Source: a virus
Taxonomy: Duplodnaviria > Caudoviricetes
Virus record (IMG/VR): IMGVR_UViG_3300037461_000646
Location: 25,208 to 89,207 of that record
Strand: one strand, 5' to 3'
DNA: 64,000 nucleotides
The notes under the pieces are model-generated. The model did not search any database and was not told the origin of the DNA. It saw only the letters and a list, made by a program, of their open reading frames with translations. Position numbers and translations under genes: made by a program. Numbering within the stretch: the first letter of the stretch is position 1; every line of letters begins with the position of its first letter. This document shows, piece after piece, positions 3,001 through 53,391 of this stretch.

Positions 3001-5326
3001 TGGTTGAAGTACTGGTAGTTGACGAGCTTGTATCGCCTGGATATGTGCTGCTGGTCGTGCTTATGGTAGATATAGTCGAAGCCGTGGAACTGGTGGAAGA
3101 CGATGAACTGCTTGAACTGGTAGAACTACTCGTCGTTGAACTGGTTGAAGCGGTAGATGATGTGCTGCTTGAAGAACTTGAACTGGTACTCGTAGTCGTG
3201 GACAAAGTTGAAGCTGTGGTCGATGTCGAGCTTGAGCTTGAAGAGGTAGAGGTTGTGGTAAACGTGCTGGTTGTTGATTGTGTGGATGCCGTAGATGACG
3301 TTGACGAAGACGAACTGCTGCTCGTGCTGGTGGATGAACTTGTGCTTGTATGGGTACTTGTCGTGGTTGACAAGGTGCTTGCTGTGGAAGATGATGACGA
3401 TGACGTACTGCTGCTCGTGGTGGTGCTGCTACTCGTGCTCGTGCTGCTGCTTGTGGTGGTTGAAATGGTAGAGGCAGTAGAACTGGTCGAAGATGAACTC
3501 GATGAACTTGTGCTAGTGCTCGTGGAGGTAGATGTACTGGTACTGCTGGTGGTAGAAAGCGTAGAGGCAGTCGAAGAGCTTGAGCTTGACGTACTCGTAC
3601 TGGTGGTTGAAAGGGTCGAAGCCGTTGAGCTTGTGGATGATGAACTCGATGAACTTGAGCTTGTGCTCGTGGTGGTGGAGTAACTCGTGCTTGTGGTGGT
3701 TGACAAGGTTGAGGCAGTTGATGAAGTGGAACTCGATGAACTGCTGCTCGTGCTGGTACTGGTAGTAGTCGATAAAGTTGAGGCTGTGGAAGATGTGGTC
3801 GTTGAAATTGTTGAGATAGTCGAACTCGATGACGAAGACGAAGACGATGAACTGGTTGTGGTTGATTGGGTTGAAGCCGTTGAACTCGATGAAGAAGAGC
3901 TTGAGGATGACGTACTCGTGCTGGTAGAAGTGGACTGACTTGTGCTCGTCGTGGTGGATATAGTTGAAGCCGTAGACGAAGTGGAACTTGATGAACTACT
4001 TGAGCTTGAAGTCGAAGTGCTGGTACTCGTGCTGCTGCCGGTGCTGCTTGTGGTGGAAGAACTTGTGGTTATAGACGAACTCGTTGTAGAAAACGTCGAA
4101 CTGGTTGATGAAGAACTGCTTGTGCTGGTGGTGGTGGTCAATGAACTTGAGGTGGTGGAACCTGTACTCGTACTGGTTGTAGTGATAGTTGTTGAAGTGG
4201 TTGAAGATGAAGACAGGTGTTTTTCAAAAATAACATCTTCAGTGGGTTGAAACTCTACGTCACCGTCCACAAAAGTGACTTCAGCTTCATAGACAACCGA
4301 GATCGAAACAGTGGAATATGTTGAACTTGTAATCGAGCTTGTAGTGGTTGAGCTTGAAGCCGTGGAAGAAGTCGTGCTTATGGTTGCCGTACTGCTGGTA
4401 TTGGTAGACGATGAACTTGTGGTCGTGGCTGTTGAACTAGTCGTTAAATGTTTTTCAAAAATTGTGTCTTCTGTCGGTTCAAATTTCACATCACCGTCAA
4501 CAAAGGTCACATCTGATTCGTAGGAAACTGAGATTGTGACCGTTGACATTGTGGATGACGTTGATGAACTTGTTGAAGTTGATGTGGTAGAATTGGTAGT
4601 CGAGCCAGTTGTGCTTGAAGAACTGCTGCTACTGCACGTAGAAGTGGTAGTGGTTGTTGTGCTACTACTAGTAGCATCCACCCATGTAATAAAGACTCGC
4701 CCGACGTTGCCGTTCCCACCAAAAGTGGTAGCGTTGTTACCAGCATACCCACCACCACCGCCACCACCGGGGAACCCACCCGCACCGCCGCTTCTGCTGC
4801 CTGTCAAACCACCAGCACCACCCGCACCACCACCCGCACCGGCAGCGCCTTCTATCTGTGCAGAGGCATTGTTGCCATTGCCACTTGGGAACCCTGATGC
4901 TCCACCGCCGCCGCCATTCGCGCCACCCGTTGCACCACCGGCACCACCCGTATAGGTTACGGTTCCGACCCCAGCAGCACCACCGGCACCACCCGTGTTG
5001 TTTCGTAAGCCTCGCACGCCAAACCGCGCAAGGACTTCACCGTTGTTGAAAGATGAATTGGCACCGTTGTTGCCGTTGGCATTGTTGGCCTGCGCCCCTA
5101 TGCCGCCAGCACCCACGACCACGGTGTAATTGTTTCCGGGCGTAACCGTGACATTTGAACGGGAGTAACCGCCACCACCGCCACCACCAGATGAGCTATT
5201 GGCGTTGCCATACCGGGCAGTCGCACCGCCACCACCACCCGCCCAAACCTCAACTTGAGCGGACGTGACACCGACTGGAGCAGTCCAGGTAAAAGTCCCG
5301 GCAGTATTGAAAGTGTTGTTACCCAT
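1..5326 (-). CDS. Giant Ser/Thr-rich (mucin-like) tail fibre/surface protein, >1775 aa, 3' end outside window
   Basis: Not in ORF track because there is no stop before the window edge. Hand translation of 5326-4680 and 1080-1 is stop-free: MGNNTFNTAGTFTWTAPVGVTSAQVEVWAGGGGGA... (Gly-rich domain), then S/T tracts in one constant frame, a globular domain (~1020-500) and a C-terminal KQPNESYPIYADY domain. ATG overlaps the stop of the upstream gene. Confidence 0.88.
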   Translation of the reverse strand, partial: MGNNTFNTAGTFTWTAPVGVTSAQVEVWAGGGGGATARYGNANSSSGGGGGGGYSRSNVTVTPGNNYTVVVGAGGIGAQANNANGNNGANSSFNNGEVLARFGVRGLRNNTGGAGGAAGVGTVTYTGGAGGATGGANGGGGGASGFPSGNGNNASAQIEGAAGAGGGAGGAGGLTGSRSGGAGGFPGGGGGGGYAGNNATTFGGNGNVGRVFITWVDATSSSTTTTTTSTCSSSSSSSTTGSTTNSTTSTSTSSSTSSTMSTVTISVSYESDVTFVDGDVKFEPTEDTIFEKHLTTSSTATTTSSSSTNTSSTATISTTSSTASSSTTTSSITSSTYSTVSISVVYEAEVTFVDGDVEFQPTEDVIFEKHLSSSSTTSTTITTTSTSTGSTTSSSLTTTTSTSSSSSTSSTFSTTSSSITTSSSTTSSTGSSTSTSTSTSSSSSSSSSTSSTASTISTTTSTSQSTSTSTSTSSSSSSSSSSTASTQSTTTSSSSSSSSSSSTISTISTTTSSTASTLSTTTSTSTSSSSSSSTSSTASTLSTTTSTSYSTTTSTSSSSSSSSSTSSTASTLSTTSTSTSSSSSSTASTLSTTSSTSTSTSTSTSTSSSSSSSTSSTASTISTTTSSSTSTSSSTTTSSSTSSSSSSTASTLSTTTSTHTSTSSSTSTSSSSSSSTSSTASTQSTTSTFTTTSTSSSSSSTSTTASTLSTTTSTSSSSSSSTSSTASTSSTTSSSTSSSSSSSSTSSTASTISTISTTSSTYPGDTSSSTTSTSTTTSTSSSSRSSTASTLSTISTTSTTSTSTSTSSSSSTSSTASTLSTTTSSSSSSSSSTASTLSTSSSSTSSTASTISTSSSSTSSTTSTFSTSSSSSSTSSSTASTLSTSSSSSSTSSSTASTLSTTSSSTTTTSSSSSSSSSTASTISTISTTSSTYPGETSSSTTSTSTSTSTSTSSSSSSSTTASTLSTTTSTSTTFSTTTSSSSSSSSSTASTLSTTTSTSSSSSSTTYSTLSTTSSSTTTLTTTSSSSSSSFSSTSTHSTTTSTSSSTSSTTGSTFSTTSSSTSTSTSTSSSSSSSSSSSTASTISTSTGSTTCTSTSTSTSSSSSTSTTVLVAEYILDDISIGLSNTTTTTTTSSSTTTTSSSSTSSTSTSFSTTTSTSTSSSSTSTTYSTLSTTTSSSSTSTSSTTTTTSFSTTTSTSTSSSTSTSTSSSSFSTTTSTFSSTSSYTTTTSSSTSTSSSTLSTTSSSTTTTSTSSTSSSSTTVSSSSSTSTSSTTVSSSSTTTTTRLGWTSTSTTTTTTSSSSTSSSSSSTASTSSSSTSSTSTTTTTSTSSSSSSSSSSTSTTSTSLSSTSSSSTTSTSTSSSSSSSTASTTSTTTTSSSSSSSSSTASTSSTFTTTSSTASSSSTYSSTTTSSSTTSTSSSSSTTTTFAPVEWAWGEAAANTILDIGDLRTYRIVIPPEYIRRSGNYIQVFIKGSAVASSPFTIQNMYVGHASAASGADPYDFDGSQVQVTFNGSASKTFDFNETGYSDHVYFDLSADKPIVVSAFVRCTAVRTVYASLRGQFGAYHYYKRNVDDAAGTNVFGYTGPINSAPFVFGILAPATYSTTTSTTTTSSTASTSSSTKTTSSGWTTTSSSTMSTTSTTYYVPDADIGFEHEDITWTFRHESVDSTFTHDTISSTWTEVVEVSDRKPALETIYKQPNESYPIYADYVDVLVTDEDLEIEECTVTVVDSAGTDVTTEMVQGLSVQDVTKLKTQLKPAGAVASSPYKITF

Positions 5327-49229: not shown

Positions 49230-49281
49230 GACACAAACCCTCCTTCACCATTAAGGTAGATTGAGAAGCCCATTCACCTTC

Positions 49282-49310
49282 ATTTTATGCACAACCAGAT
49301 CACCTGTCAA
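49282..49310 (-). promoter_or_regulatory. Sigma70 promoter for the PEP-CTERM protease operon
   Basis: TTGACA-N17-TAAAAT, ~50 bp upstream of the AAGGAGG RBS. Confidence 0.8.
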
Positions 49311-50405
49311 TGCTATTATTTTTACCAATCAGAACCCTAAGCAAAGTCCGAAGGGGGGCCACTACTTAAATAAAGCCAAGGGGGTATCCAAAATAAAAAA
49401 GATATTAGCTTTCACCAACCAATTCACCTCCGTATATTTACACTCCAAAAGATATTAGTTTTTTCGTTCATACCAGCAATAGGCCATAGATCGTTCTGGC
49501 ACATATAATAAGGTAGGCCAAGACTGATGTGTTCTGAGTGAACTTCAGAATCATAAAAAAATTATGGTTAAGGCCCTGTGGCAGAGGCAGAGACCGGTCC
49601 CTGCAAGATAAAATGAGGCGGGTTCATTCAATGAATGTGATTCAGATAGTTAATGAATGATAATCATTGAATAAAATTATAGGTGGTGACTGGGCCTCAT
49701 TCATTGATTGCGCCTGATAATACTTATTATGTAAACAATCATTGAATGTGATTCAGATAGTGGGTTTAGGCACAGTCACTGAATGTGGTTCAGTCATTGT
49801 GTCCTCATTAAATAAGTTAGGCATCCATAAGTGAACTAATATCATTCATTCACTGTACCCATACCCATTCACTGATCGAGAACACATTCACTGAATAGAA
49901 ATGCAATGACTGAATGTGATTCATATACTATGCCCTTATTCATTCAATAAACCTGATTCATTGATTAAAGGCCCTTAGAATAGGTATATTCGATTCAGTC
50001 ACTGAATGTGGTTCAGGTAGTGGTTGGGTATGCAAAGATTGAATGCTGGTCATTTAATGTTGGTTTATACAGTGAATGAATATGATTCAGCTATTAGGTT
50101 TGATTCATTTATTGTTTGGGGATTCAAAGAATGAGTCTGGTTTATGATATAAATAGATAATAGTTATTGAATGTGATTCTAATCACTGAATGCTGGTTAT
50201 TTATTTGATAGGACTTTAATTAATAAATGAGCTTCAGATTATGAAGTAGAATCAGTTTATGAATGTGGTTTAGAAAATGAATTGCTATTATTTTCTGAAG
50301 AGAATTCATAAAATGAAGAACTAATATTTTTTGCTGGCACGTTTTTTGATTGAGTAGGATTCAGCAAATAAATAATAGTTATTGAATGTGGTTCATTCGG
50401 CTAAT

Positions 50406-50422
50406 AGCAAATATTATGCCAG
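50406..50422 (-). promoter_or_regulatory. Sigma54 (-24/-12) promoter-like site
   Basis: CTGGCATAATATTTGCT = GG-N10-GC consensus. Confidence 0.55.
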
Positions 50423-50609
50423 AAAAATCTCTTTGCCTTGAGCTTCTAATGCAGTCAAACGGGCATTTTAAAAAGACGCATATCATTGCATTCGGCTGGT
50501 TGTGATCTCTTTACTATGAGCATCTAATAGCTCCAATAATTTCTAACAATTTCAATGGTTTACATTCTCTAATAAATAAATTTCATTCATTAAATAAATA
50601 TTAGTTTTA

Positions 50610-50626
50610 TGGCATCACGTTTGCAT
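50610..50626 (+). promoter_or_regulatory. Sigma54 (-24/-12) promoter-like site
   Basis: TGGCATCACGTTTGCAT. Confidence 0.55.
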
Positions 50627-50704
50627 AAAAAACCATGATCCCACAGGTCCATCTTACTGAACCCCATTCATTTATTACTGGCACGTTTTTTGACTGAATG
50701 CGTC

Positions 50705-50838
50705 TACTCAAATTTTTGAGTATGACCTAAGTGATAAAAAAAATTGCCAAGGTTCAAAATTTTGAACCCCAAAATTCAAAATTTTGAACAAATTATATAG
50801 TCATTTCAATAGGTTGTAAATAGTTCAAAATCATGAAC
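50705..50838. repeat. Four related palindromes TCAAAATTTTGA
   Basis: TACTCAAATTTTTGAGTA (50705), GGTTCAAAATTTTGAACC (50751), TTCAAAATTTTGAA (50775), GTTCAAAATCATGAAC (50823). Confidence 0.8.
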
Positions 50839-50929
50839 CAAAAAACTGATATTTTATAATATTCAAATAATTGCCGTCTGTAACCATGTGAAATTACATA
50901 AGATAAAAATATTATCTGATATTATTTTA

Positions 50930-50946
50930 TGGCATGATATTAGCAT
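50930..50946 (+). promoter_or_regulatory. Sigma54-like site (one mismatch)
   Basis: TGGCATGATATTAGCAT. Confidence 0.4.
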
Positions 50947-51699
50947 ATAATATTTATGGTTTTTGTTTAGGGCGAAAGGCCGATCCCCGGCACCAAGGTT
51001 TGAAACCCTTGAAACCCCTGATCTTTGAAAACAGCTTTTTTATCACTTCAGGCGATTTTTTCGCCGTTTCATTGTTTAAAGTAGAGTGATAAATGGTCAA
51101 GCTTGCACCGTAGTTCTAAGAGTAGCTATACGGTGGCTATGCTTCACCCGGCAAGGGGCGAACCGATAGCACAGACCGAATGCCAAGTATAAGCTGACTA
51201 CTGCAAAGCTTTTTGATCTGGCCAAAAAGTAAATGGTATGCACCCGTTGAAATTTGAAACCGCAAAAAGCAGACCTAAAAAAGCAAAATTTCGGTCACAG
51301 GCGAAACCTAGGGTATAATGTGAAGAGATAAAAAAGCAAAAAAACAGCAAAGCAACAAAAAGCTTTTAAGCTTGTTTCTCTTTGCTTGCAAATTGTGACA
51401 CTAGCCAGAAGCTTTTTAATGCCTTGATATTTTTTTCTGTTTAATCGCTGCGGTTCGGGCTATCGGTTTTCATGCACTGCTAACATCTCATCTACTGTCA
51501 AAAAAAGCATAAGGCATGAATCAAAAACCCGATTAAAAGCTTGAATGAATTTTCGGCAGCAAATAGCTAAACCCCCCCTTGATGGTGTTAGCCAAGAGCA
51601 CTAAACGCATTTTGTTTAGTGCTCTGTTATTTGCATAGGGTTTTTATATGTGAATAAAAGAGCACTAAACCAAAAACCCCAAACTAGTGAGGTGATTTA

Positions 51700-51813
51700 T
51701 TGCGTAAACGCAAACGCAAAAAAACAAAATCGGCAAGGGTGCCAAAAATAAAAACAGATATGCAAAGCTTGATTTTCTGTTTATTATTTTTGGCAATTGC
51801 ATTAAACTATTAA
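51700..51813 (+). CDS. Small basic/hydrophobic peptide (37 aa)
   Basis: GAGGTG RBS, TTG start; MRKRKRKKTKSARVPKIKTDMQSLIFCLLFLAIALNY. Confidence 0.45.
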   Translation: MRKRKRKKTKSARVPKIKTDMQSLIFCLLFLAIALNY

Positions 51814-51834
51814 AATGAAAAACAGGTGATTAAA

Positions 51835-52329
51835 ATGGCTAACATTGAAAACAAAAATGACGGCAAAGGTTTAGATTTTGCTTGTAAACTGTTTGGCAAA
51901 AAGCATGATTCAAAAAACCCCCGTTGCAAAACTTGTGCATCAAAGTATGCCAATCAAAACAAAGCTTGCATTGCCGCAATTGCCGCAATTGCCAAACCGA
52001 AACCGAAAACCGAAAACGAGTCAAAACGAACCAAAGGGTATTGGGACTATGCAGTAGGCAGTTTCACCGATATTTTTTGCAATTCAATCTGTGAGAACCC
52101 TATGACTATGAATCAGGCGGCCGCTATCATCGACCCGAAAACAAAATTGCCTATTGGGCCGCACCCGAAATGCAAAAAGCGCTTAATCACCGAAAACTTG
52201 GCAGCCGAATTTGATCATAAAATTTACATGAGAGTGTACCCCAAAGGGCACCCAGAAGCAGGCAAACTTACCCCAGCCGCTAAGATGATTCGCGAGATTG
52301 AAACCAAAGCCAAAGCCAAAGCCAACTAA
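51835..52329 (+). CDS. Lys-rich hypothetical protein with N-terminal Cys cluster
   Basis: AGGTG RBS; C-x13-CxxC-x10-C; followed by hairpin 52344-52384. Confidence 0.65.
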   Translation: MANIENKNDGKGLDFACKLFGKKHDSKNPRCKTCASKYANQNKACIAAIAAIAKPKPKTENESKRTKGYWDYAVGSFTDIFCNSICENPMTMNQAAAIIDPKTKLPIGPHPKCKKRLITENLAAEFDHKIYMRVYPKGHPEAGKLTPAAKMIREIETKAKAKAN

Positions 52330-52422
52330 AAACTGTTGATTGTAGGGCATCTAATACGGCCTAGAATGCTTTTTAGGTGCCCTACCGTAAATAGTTTTTC
52401 AAACCACCATTCAAGGCAAAAA

Positions 52423-52632
52423 TGAATAGCATTCATTCACTGAATGAGATTCATTTCCTACTTGGCTATTCACTGAATATCATTCAGTCACTAAATGAGA
52501 TTCATTTACTGAATGAGGTTCTAATCAGTGAATATCATTCAGTCATTGAATGAGCCTCAGTCACTAAATGAGGTTCAGTCACTGAATAGGCTAACACTCA
52601 CTGAACCCGGTTCAGAACCTGAAGACCATTCA
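52423..52632. repeat. Phased tandem array of ~11 TGAA-N5-TTCA palindromes, 18-19 bp period
   Basis: Unit starts at 52423, 52441, 52474, 52492, 52510, 52529, 52547, 52565, 52583, 52602, 52620. Confidence 0.9.
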
Positions 52633-52668
52633 GTCCAAGCCGGGTAAACCACAAGGGAGGTATCCACC

Positions 52669-53391
52669 ATGGAGAGCACCACGTATGGAGAAAACGGCAA
52701 TGGTAATGGACTTGACAGAGACAAGGCCATGGAAACCATCATGAAGTGCCTGACTCTGGCCGCTGACCCTGGAGCCACTGAAGATGAACGGAATGTAGCT
52801 GCAAGGAAAGCCGAGCAGATTATGGCCCGGTGGCAAATTAGCACCATGGAAATGCGCGTCAAGTCTGAGCAAGGCAAGCCAAGGACCACTGCCAATGTCA
52901 AGGATCGAACCGAGCAAGCATTCGACCCTGCCGCTGATTGGGAGTTTCATCTGGCTATGGGTGTTTCAAAGACATTCAACAGCAAGGTGATAGTTTCCCA
53001 CGACCGCACCGACATGCGTTTCTTTGGATCGGCCAACGACCTGGAGATCATCGACTATTTCTTCAGCAAGCTTCGCATGGAAATCGACTCATGGGCAGAG
53101 GACGCATACCCCCGTGGGATTCGTGATCGCCGCAGCTATGCCTATGGAATGGTCTGCCGGGTCAATCAGCGCATGGATGAGCTTTACAAAGTTGTGGAGA
53201 AGATGATGCCCAACGATTGCAAGGATTTGATTCTGGTTGACAAGGCATTGGTCAGTCAACGGATTAAAGAGCTTTACCCGACTCTTGGAAAGATGAAGAG
53301 TCGTGCCGTCAGGAATGATGCGTATGCTCGTGGATTCAGCGATGGCAATTCACTGAATCTGGAAAGCAATCGCTCAAGACTTCATGGGTAA
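52669..53391 (+). CDS. DUF2786 family protein
   Basis: TIMKCLTLAADPGATEDERNVAARKAEQIMARWQI; F.G...DLEI..Y; SYAYGM; AY..G..DG. Confidence 0.8.
   Translation: MESTTYGENGNGNGLDRDKAMETIMKCLTLAADPGATEDERNVAARKAEQIMARWQISTMEMRVKSEQGKPRTTANVKDRTEQAFDPAADWEFHLAMGVSKTFNSKVIVSHDRTDMRFFGSANDLEIIDYFFSKLRMEIDSWAEDAYPRGIRDRRSYAYGMVCRVNQRMDELYKVVEKMMPNDCKDLILVDKALVSQRIKELYPTLGKMKSRAVRNDAYARGFSDGNSLNLESNRSRLHG

What the first reader, a model, noticed from the sequence alone, without database searches (positions are those of the whole stretch)
52423..52632. Phased array of alternating TGAA/TTCA half-sites every 9 bp
Seen: about 11 copies of TGAA-N5-TTCA at an 18-19 bp period, so half-sites alternate orientation every ~9 bp, ending 36 bp before the first early gene. 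Inner and linker bases vary while half-sites are kept. Inference: a cooperative protein-binding lattice such as replication iterons, a centromere-like partition site, a packaging/injection signal, or a decoy that titrates a host regulator. The 5-3-5 geometry recalls Lrp/AsnC-family sites, but that is speculative.
Basis: partly seen in the sequence, partly recalled or inferred. Interest (0 to 1): 0.76.

Follow-up and report, generated by a model that had tools for sequence, protein, structure and literature searches.

The report
Phased 18-bp protein-binding lattice in phage
A row of about twelve 18-base repeats, each holding the palindrome TGAAT-N3-ATTCA, is real and is conserved in the same place in many uncultured phages; it is most likely a docking track for a phage DNA-binding protein at the replication-origin and early-gene control region.

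Summary
Window 52418-52637 holds 11 units plus one worn unit of TGAAT-N3-ATTCA at 18/19-bp steps. The array ends 36 bp before the first early gene.

It is not recent slippage. Eight relatives, whose proteins are 54-70% identical, carry the array in the same place. Across 80 units only the two half-sites carry information; centre and linker vary.

The 'dispersed' copies at 49627-50670 lie on the same roughly 18.4-bp lattice, so four units span about 73.5 bp, or seven helical turns.

An exact two-unit scan of IMG/VR found the same motif and period in at least nine other phage contigs (GC 27-47%). In most of them the arrays sit at the genome's most AT-rich spot, the cumulative GC-skew minimum, and the point where the early and terminase/structural arms diverge.

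A small gene between the two clusters (51835-52329) encodes a zinc-ribbon plus winged-helix protein. A paralogous winged helix ends a basic protein encoded beside the phage helicase.

Best reading (about 0.45): iteron-type origin and control region read by a phage winged-helix dimer. Rivals are a pure early-gene operator, a packaging site, a centromere and a host-factor decoy. Binding and origin activity are untested.

Earlier notes of this scan (e1-5324165, e1-3427412) describe what appears to be the same element on other DNA.

The parts
52418..52637 (.). Array B: 11 units plus one worn unit of (GTCAC)-TGAAT-N3-ATTCA at 18/19-bp steps
49627..50670 (.). Cluster A: about 17-21 copies of the same palindrome, spaced at multiples of about 18.4 bp (steps 18, 37, 56, 75, 91)
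   Evidence: Rayleigh test (best period 18.40-18.45, R 0.74-0.78, 0 of 500 random sets reach it)
49994..51800 (.). Gene-poor AT-rich spacer. The genome's eight lowest-GC 300-bp windows start at 49994-50744 (GC 0.27-0.30 against a mean of 0.47). It also holds the sigma54-like boxes.
51835..52329 (+). 164-aa protein: four-Cys N-terminal motif, Lys-rich linker and C-terminal winged helix. Candidate reader of the repeats (inferred).
   Evidence: alignment; domain model pLDDT 95.6; all top-50 VIA neighbours are winged-helix domains, Z 5.6-6.3; conserved in this position in all close relatives
52341..52386 (+). Strong hairpin after the 164-aa gene, followed by a U-run; terminator-like
   Evidence: -28.8 kcal/mol, z -5.8; analogous hairpins in relatives
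52583..52601 (+). Third-from-last unit, whose right half-site is replaced by the conserved element GGCTAACAYT. The element lies in the same unit in six relatives and upstream of the array in L010 and L062/L063. Meaning unknown.
52669..53391 (+). First early gene (DUF2786 + DUF7168), 36 bp after the array, with a strong Shine-Dalgarno site at 52654-52660

Best explanation
**Proposal.** The array is one half of a two-part, phased binding lattice for a symmetric dimeric DNA-binding protein encoded by the phage. The lattice marks the phage's replication-origin and control region.

**Shown:**
- Two clusters of TGAAT-N3-ATTCA on a common lattice of about 18.4 bp.
- Between them lie the most AT-rich DNA of the genome and a small winged-helix gene.
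- The layout sits at the GC-skew minimum and at the divergence of the early/replication arm from the structural arm.
- The motif, period and placement are kept in most of the distantly related phages examined.

**Inferred:**
- Dimers of the 164-aa zinc-ribbon/winged-helix protein occupy the units cooperatively. The 387-aa basic protein encoded beside the helicase, which ends in a paralogous winged helix, may do so too.
- Four units equal seven helical turns, so the proteins would spiral around the DNA.
- The complex would help open the adjacent AT-rich DNA, or pair the two clusters as iteron replicons do.
- Because array B abuts the first early gene, occupancy would also throttle early transcription once the protein accumulates.
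For: - Half-site-specific conservation: 80 units from 8 relatives carry 1.1-1.9 bits at T0 G1 A2 A3 T4 and T9 T10 C11 A12, but only 0.02-0.55 bits in the centre.
- Departures from the palindrome are not compensated, with 17 A.C pairs against 1 compensated pair. Base identity is selected, not pairing.
- Cluster A shares the period in four genomes.
- The same motif and 18-bp steps, or multiples of 18, occur in G001-G009. In a spacing control over periods 14-25, almost only period 18 gives large arrays.
- Array regions coincide with the lowest-GC windows, the cumulative GC-skew minimum (within 0.3-2.4 kb) and the largest or second-largest gene gap in G000, G001, G004, G005 and G003.
- The phage encodes its own replisome but no recognisable initiator.
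- The winged-helix gene is flanked by, or adjacent to, arrays in G000, G001, G005, G003, G007 and G008.
- The paralogous domain in the helicase-adjacent protein scores E 2.8e-5.
- Known parallels: lambda iterons are 19-bp imperfect inverted repeats next to an AT-rich tract (PMC7466680), and iteron-plasmid Rep proteins bind through winged helices (PMC4980987).
Against: - No binding, origin firing or read-coverage data exist.
- The GC-skew minimum is confounded with the switch of gene orientation.
- The winged-helix family has no detectable relation to O, RepA/RepE or other initiators. Only 10 members were found among 1.84 billion representatives.
- In distant array-bearing phages the neighbouring small proteins are not demonstrably homologous to it. 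G001 scores only E 0.0045. G003 and G008 carry another winged-HTH type at sub-threshold scores.
- That is odd if one conserved reader recognises an invariant half-site.
- Twelve plus about 17 sites is more than most origins use.
- G002 (46% complete) has its array away from a divergence point.
Confidence: 0.45

Rival explanations
1. Pure transcriptional operator. The lattice is a repressor track that shuts off, or autoregulates, the early operon and the winged-helix gene, and has no role in replication.
For: - Array B ends 36 bp before the first early gene in all close relatives.
- The conserved GGCTAACAYT element lies inside the array in six relatives and upstream of it in L010 and L062/L063. 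Occlusion or a roadblock tolerates that shift, but an activator site would not.
- In G003, G007 and G008 arrays lie upstream of the small winged-HTH gene, as in autoregulated repressors.
Against: - No sigma70-type promoter was found in or just upstream of the array, so the promoter-operator relation is unknown.
- An operator does not explain a second 1-kb phased cluster 2-3 kb away.
- An operator does not explain the coincidence with the AT-richest DNA and the skew minimum in five genomes.
- In G001 the array does not abut the early arm.
Confidence: 0.25
2. Packaging recognition site (pac or cosB-like) or terminus-proximal repeats read by the terminase small subunit.
For: - In G001, G004, G005, G003, G007 and G008 the arrays lie 0.07-1.7 kb upstream of the first gene of the terminase module.
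- From my own knowledge, phased small-subunit sites are known in SPP1 pac and lambda cosB, and short repeat series flank the T7 terminal repeat.
Against: - The proteins in the small-subunit position fall into at least two unrelated types among array-bearing phages, while the half-sites stay identical.
- In the window the arrays are 5-8 kb from that gene.
- Dyad-symmetric units do not suit a ring of identically oriented subunits.
- The 127-bp end repeat of the record lies inside the primase gene, so it looks like an assembly overlap, not a terminus.
Confidence: 0.1
3. A host-protein site array: a decoy or recruiter for a conserved bacterial regulator or nucleoid protein.
For: - The half-sites are invariant across phages of GC 27-47%, whereas phage-encoded readers usually drift.
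- Pairs of the palindrome at 18-bp spacing occur in 29 bacterial loci, far above the roughly 0.5 I estimate by chance.
Against: - Bacterial hits are only pairs, in unrelated phyla and before unrelated genes: DUF4143 ATPases, SDRs, binding proteins, a TPP enzyme and purK. No common regulon emerges.
- From my own knowledge, ArgR boxes have a 4-bp centre and a 20-21-bp period, which does not fit.
- No DnaA-box cluster is present.
Confidence: 0.08
4. Partition centromere of the tubC/parC kind, bound by a winged-helix adaptor.
For: It has tandem iterons next to a small winged-helix gene. From my own knowledge, this matches TubR-tubC.
Against: - No ParA, ParM or TubZ-like NTPase, integrase or plasmid-maintenance gene was found among about 68 proteins scanned.
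- The genome looks like a lytic phage with its own replisome.
Confidence: 0.05
5. RNA-level hairpin array, or a neutral minisatellite.
For: - As RNA the array folds well, at -80 kcal/mol with z -6.4.
- Some distant arrays are near-identical copies, which shows slippage turnover.
Against: - There is no compensatory change; stems are broken rather than repaired.
- No Rfam family reaches its threshold.
- The same half-sites persist with lineage-specific linkers, which a neutral repeat would not show.
Confidence: 0.02

Closest known systems
Lambda-type origin iterons (ori-lambda and Stx-phage origins; O protein)
   Same: - Tandem units of about 19 bp, each itself an imperfect inverted repeat bound by a dimer.
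- They lie next to an AT-rich unwinding tract (PMC7466680).
   Different: - There are 12 + about 17 sites here, against 4-6 in lambda.
- They lie in non-coding DNA, not inside the initiator gene.
- They form two clusters on a long-range 18.4-bp lattice.
- The candidate reader has no sequence relation to O.
Iteron control regions of theta replicons (P1 oriR/incC-repA-incA; F incB-repE-incC; R6K)
   Same: - A small winged-helix gene is flanked by two clusters of the same repeat.
- One cluster adjoins AT-rich DNA.
- Such clusters allow pairing ('handcuffing') and autoregulation. The architecture is from my own knowledge; winged-helix Rep binding is from PMC4980987.
   Different: - Plasmid iterons are direct, asymmetric repeats read by Rep monomers with two winged helices.
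- Here the units are dyad-symmetric.
- The protein has one winged helix plus a zinc ribbon.
- The replicon is a lytic phage with its own helicase, primase and polymerase.
Phi29 protein p6 nucleoprotein complex (my own knowledge)
   Same: A phased protein lattice with a fixed period (24 bp in phi29) that both activates the origin and represses an early promoter.
   Different: - p6 recognises DNA bendability, not a conserved palindrome.
- It acts at linear genome ends.
- Its fold is unrelated.
TubR-tubC and ParR-parC centromeres (my own knowledge)
   Same: A small winged-helix or ribbon-helix-helix adaptor forms a helical filament on tandem iterons next to its own gene.
   Different: There is no motor gene here, the period and motif differ, and the setting is a lytic phage.

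Membership tests
Iteron-type replication origin | Several regularly spaced copies of one initiator-binding sequence | tested here: met
   11-12 units at 18/19 bp, plus a second cluster on the same lattice
Iteron-type replication origin | Adjacent AT-rich unwinding region | tested here: met
   The eight lowest-GC 300-bp windows of the genome lie between and inside the clusters. The same holds in G001, G003, G004 and G005.
Iteron-type replication origin | An initiator that binds the repeats, usually encoded nearby | tested here: inconclusive
   A winged-helix gene lies between the clusters, and a paralogous domain sits in a helicase-adjacent protein. There is no homology to known initiators, and binding is untested.
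Iteron-type replication origin | Replication starts there | not testable with these tools
   Only the cumulative GC-skew minimum is available, and it is confounded by the change of gene orientation.
   No such protein was found among about 68 phage proteins scanned. One distant array-adjacent protein has only a sub-threshold HTH_24 hit (E 3.7e-4) and no RAM domain.
ArgR ARG boxes | TGAAT-N4-ATTCA boxes of 18 bp, separated by 2-3 bp (period 20-21; my own knowledge) | tested here: not met
   The centre is 3 bp and the period 18-19 in every genome.
Partition centromere (tubC/parC type) | Adjacent cytomotive NTPase gene (TubZ, ParM or ParA) | tested here: not met
   The neighbours are DUF2786/DUF7168, DUF932 and proteins without any family match; no NTPase of these kinds was found.
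pac / cosB packaging site | Bound by the terminase small subunit, and close to the genome terminus or pac cut | tested here: inconclusive
   The arrays are close to the terminase module in distant relatives. However, unrelated small-subunit-position proteins share the same motif. Termini cannot be mapped without reads.

The most novel reading that the evidence does not exclude
The TGAAT-N3-ATTCA lattice, at four units per seven helical turns and up to 1 kb long, is the signature cis-element of a large uncultured phage group. It would be read by a previously undescribed zinc-ribbon/winged-helix protein together with a linker-histone-like paralogue (acidic region, AT-hook, Lys/Ala/Pro tail, winged helix). 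Together they would form a helical nucleoprotein filament that couples origin firing to early-gene shut-off. That would be a new kind of phage origin organiser, not another lambda- or plasmid-type iteron set.
Probability: 0.25. Interest if true: 0.75.

Novelty: new variant of a known kind. Interest (0 to 1): 0.6.

Why it matters
This phage group has no cultured member; no match was found in GenBank phages. The lattice therefore gives a concrete, testable handle on how these phages start replication and switch off early genes.

- A defined 13-bp palindrome with a strict period and two candidate reader proteins makes binding, footprinting and structural work straightforward.
- The motif can serve as a marker to recognise members of the group and to orient their genomes. 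It appears to separate the early arm from the packaging arm.
- The four-units-per-seven-turns geometry and the linker-histone-like paralogue would interest people who study nucleoprotein filaments and phage chromatin-like proteins.

Tried and rejected
- **Tandem sigma70 promoters.** Neighbouring units place a TTGAAT-like hexamer 17 bp before a TnnnAT hexamer. I rejected this because the critical second base of the would-be -10 (unit position 5) is unconserved at 0.16 bits, and the promoter scan finds nothing there.
- **ArgR boxes.** The centre length and period are wrong.
- **RNA hairpins.** There is no covariation, and Rfam gives only sub-threshold miRNA-like noise.
- **tRNA genes.** None.
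- **DnaA boxes.** Only two one-mismatch sites in 3.5 kb, which is no cluster.
- **GGCTAACA as a recurrent phage promoter.** Only 4 copies in the genome.
At least two unrelated protein types accompany the same motif.
- **GenBank phages.** No DNA or protein match.
- **Single-protein pattern scans of IMG/VR.** Nothing found.
- **Full-length model of the 164-aa protein.** Poor (pLDDT 59), and Foldseek gave nothing significant. The domain-only model was needed.
- **ESM Atlas and PDB sequence searches.** Nothing usable.
- **HMM searches linking array-adjacent proteins of distant phages.** The only hit was G001, at E 0.0045.
- I could not check the contigs of the more distant winged-helix homologues P0046-P0048 for arrays.

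Full report
**1. The observation**

The stretch 52418-52637 is a tandem array.
- Units start at 52423, 52441, 52474, 52492, 52510, 52529, 52547, 52565, 52583, 52602 and 52620.
- A worn unit lies near 52459 and is 3 bp short.
- Steps between units are 18 or 19 bp.
- The unit consensus is GTCAC-TGAAT-GAG-ATTCA.
- Tandem Repeats Finder reports period 18.
- The window has 17 exact TGAA-N5-TTCA sites against 2.5 expected, and no shuffle reaches 17.
- In the whole genome, 15 of 20 sites lie in one 3-kb stretch.
- The array ends 36 bp before the ATG at 52669.

**2. The genome**

The window is bases 25208-89207 of an 89,207-bp IMG/VR phage record.
- Its 127-bp end repeat lies inside the primase gene. 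It therefore looks like a circular-assembly overlap, and the physical ends are unknown.
- Two arms diverge at the 2.6-kb gene-poor region 49230-51826.
- The minus arm runs leftwards and holds terminase, portal, capsid and tail genes.
- The plus arm holds early genes and then a full replisome: primase, DnaB-like helicase, clamp, PolA-UDG, clamp loader, RecA-like protein, flap nuclease and SbcCD-like proteins.
- About 68 proteins were scanned. None was an integrase, ParA/ParB, a known initiator or a classical repressor.
- GenBank phages hold no relative.

**3. The array is conserved, and only in its half-sites**

- The first early protein (DUF2786 + DUF7168) has relatives at 61-70% identity. The 164-aa protein upstream of the array has relatives at 51-68%.
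- Their contigs (L008, L010, L011, L012, L062/63, L065, L066) share one layout: small gene, strong hairpin, 7-12 units at 18/19 bp, then the same early gene.
- Over 80 units, information content is 1.1-1.9 bits at T0 G1 A2 A3 T4 and T9 T10 C11 A12. It is 0.02-0.55 bits in the centre and 0.2-0.9 bits in the linker.
- Departures from the palindrome break pairing and are not compensated. At the G-C position there are 17 A.C pairs against 1 A-T. Each half-site's sequence is selected, which points to protein recognition of duplex DNA and not to a hairpin.

**4. The second cluster shares the lattice**

- The copies at 49627-50670 look scattered, but their steps are 18, 37, 56, 75 and 91 bp.
- A Rayleigh test gives a best period of 18.40-18.45 bp with R 0.74-0.78. 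None of 500 random site sets reaches this.
- L062 (18.2), L064 (18.1-18.35) and L010 (18.55) give similar results. L065 and L066 have only 12 sites each and are not significant.
- Within array B the occasional 19-bp step gives a mean of about 18.25-18.4 bp.
- Four units are thus about 73.5 bp, or seven turns of B-DNA.
- From this I infer that successive dimers sit about 270 degrees apart around the helix, and that sites four units apart face the same way.

**5. The element is widespread**

- An exact scan of IMG/VR for two units at 18 bp found 15 loci. Some are coding or simple repeats.
- Nine distinct contigs (G001-G009, counting the reverse-oriented twins G006 and G008) hold true arrays. They have 5-18 sites at steps of 18 bp or multiples (36, 54, 72), in genomes of 27-47% GC.
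- Linkers differ between genomes (gtgga, tccag, ttagc, tttag, ttttc). Some arrays are near-identical copies, so arrays turn over by slippage while half-sites and period persist.
Almost only there did the pair sit in a large array. The exceptions were two contigs (L103, L110), found through other spacings, that belong to the same lattice family.
- L113, found through a 21-bp pair, also holds six sites at 18-bp steps elsewhere in the locus.
- G000, G001, G005 and G007 share terminase, portal, capsid and tail genes. G002 and G004 share replication genes with them. This is one broad, deeply diverged phage group.
- In bacterial genomes the same pattern gives only pairs, in unrelated phyla and before unrelated genes. 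The single array there (L072/L092) is a 102,562-bp contig of the same length as G004, binned into a Cloacimonadota MAG.

**6. Where the arrays sit**

- In G000, G001, G004, G005 and G003 the array region holds most or all of the genome's lowest-GC 300-bp windows.
- In the same genomes it lies within 0.3-2.4 kb of the cumulative GC-skew minimum, and in or beside the largest or second-largest gene gap.
- It also marks the divergence of the early arm from the terminase arm.
- This is the classical picture of a bidirectional origin. However, the skew minimum is confounded with the change of gene orientation.
- G002, a 46%-complete fragment, is an exception.

**7. A candidate reader**

- The gene between the clusters (51835-52329) encodes four invariant cysteines, a Lys-rich linker and a conserved C-terminal domain.
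- The full-length model was poor. The domain alone, folded with 26 sequences, gave pLDDT 95.6 with helix-helix-helix-hairpin topology.
- All top-50 neighbours among 48,161 PDB representatives are winged-helix domains: TFE-alpha, TtgV, NolR, CzrA, SmtB, MarR, Fur/Nur, ScpB and IscR. Z is 5.6-6.3, which is moderate, so it shows fold class only.
- The same domain ends a 387-aa protein at genome 4159-5322. That gene lies outside the window, just after the DnaB-like helicase (E 2.8e-5).
- The 387-aa protein also has an acidic tract, a GRGRP AT-hook, a small SAP-like segment (my reading of the alignment) and a long Lys/Ala/Pro tail.
- The domain family is tiny: 10 hits among 1.84 billion representatives.
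- In G001 a 193-aa gene between its two clusters hits the family weakly (E 0.0045).
- In G003 and G008, array-adjacent 118-aa proteins are related to each other. The G003 protein scores sub-threshold on winged-HTH models.
- Sequence does not link them to the G000 family.
- What is conserved is therefore the pairing of an array with a small winged-helix(-like) gene. A single demonstrable reader family is not. That the protein reads the repeats is an inference.

**8. Mechanism and rivals**

The best fit is an iteron-type origin and control region.
- Dimers would fill the lattice cooperatively.
- Each unit resembles a lambda iteron, a 19-bp imperfect inverted repeat next to an AT-rich tract (PMC7466680).
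- Iteron-plasmid initiators bind through winged helices (PMC4980987).
- Because array B abuts the early operon, occupancy should also repress it.
- I give this reading 0.45.

Rivals:
- A pure operator role gets 0.25. It explains the abutment and the movable GGCTAACAYT element, but not the second cluster or the genome-wide landmarks.
- A packaging site gets 0.10. It fits the closeness to terminase genes in distant relatives. However, unrelated small-subunit-position proteins accompany the same motif.
- A host-factor decoy gets 0.08, a centromere 0.05, and an RNA array or junk repeat 0.02.

**9. Novelty**

- Arrays of binding sites at origins and operators are a known kind of element.
- What is new here is the motif, the 18.4-bp long-range register, the deep conservation across an uncultured phage group, and the undescribed candidate reader domain.
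- Earlier notes of this scan describe what appears to be the same palindrome arrays on another genome (e1-5324165), and a related architecture (e1-3427412).
- The second cluster and the sigma54-like boxes of this window were noted separately (e1-5940893, e1-5940894).

Noticed in passing
window 50335-50930: Five of the genome's twelve sigma54-like boxes (TGGCAY-N5-TWGM) lie in 600 bp of the AT-rich spacer, four of them facing the 164-aa gene. Some relatives have 1-4 such boxes (L008, L062, L064); others have none. A perfect TGGCAC-N5-TTGC box sits just upstream of the PolA gene (genome 9067, outside the window). No enhancer-binding protein was seen in the phage.
   Followed up: partly
L013:4159-5322 (genome coordinates, outside the window): This 387-aa protein is built like a linker histone: a small helical head, a long acidic Glu/Pro/Leu tract, a GRGRP AT-hook, a SAP-like segment, a Lys/Ala/Pro-rich tail and a C-terminal winged helix. 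It is encoded right after the DnaB-like helicase. Shorter versions (285-290 aa) exist elsewhere (P0049, P0050).
   Followed up: partly
window 50752-50838: Three copies of the 16-bp palindrome GTTCAAAATTTTGAAC (one perfect, two near) lie at 50752, 50774 and 50823. They are absent from the relatives examined.
   Followed up: partly
window 52589-52598; also 55404 and 51593 (minus strand): The GGCTAACAYT element is conserved in or just before the array in all close relatives, replacing one right half-site. It has only four copies in the genome. It is not a recurrent promoter motif, and its meaning is unknown.
   Followed up: partly
L069:3149-3179, L074:6267-6297, L076:2072-2102, L094:3889-3919: Nearly identical operator-like pairs, TGAATATCATTCA-N5-TGAATGAYATTCA, occur in Anaerolineales, Dehalococcoidia, Arenicellales and Myxococcales MAGs. 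In two of them the pair lies directly upstream of DUF4143/AAA_14 ATPase genes. This may be a mobile gene carrying its own operator.
   Followed up: partly
L013:17858-18664 and L013:5802-6971: The replication arm also encodes a caspase-family peptidase (Peptidase_C14, E 5e-24) and a protein with a sub-threshold radical-SAM match (24.1 bits against a 29.5-bit cut-off).
   Followed up: no
L072/L092 (contig JAVCCH010000098.1) and G004: A 102,562-bp array-bearing contig, the same length as G004, is binned in a MAG named Candidatus Tenebribacter davisii (Cloacimonadota). This is a weak host hint for that branch of the phage group.
   Followed up: no
L100, L101, L107, L112, L113, L115, L120, L123, L124: Nine IMG/VR loci hold the same palindrome in pairs at a 21-bp period, with only 2-4 sites each. 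At least one (L100) is a coding Ser/Glu/Asp repeat. L113 also carries a separate run of six sites at 18-bp steps (3672-3762).
   Followed up: partly
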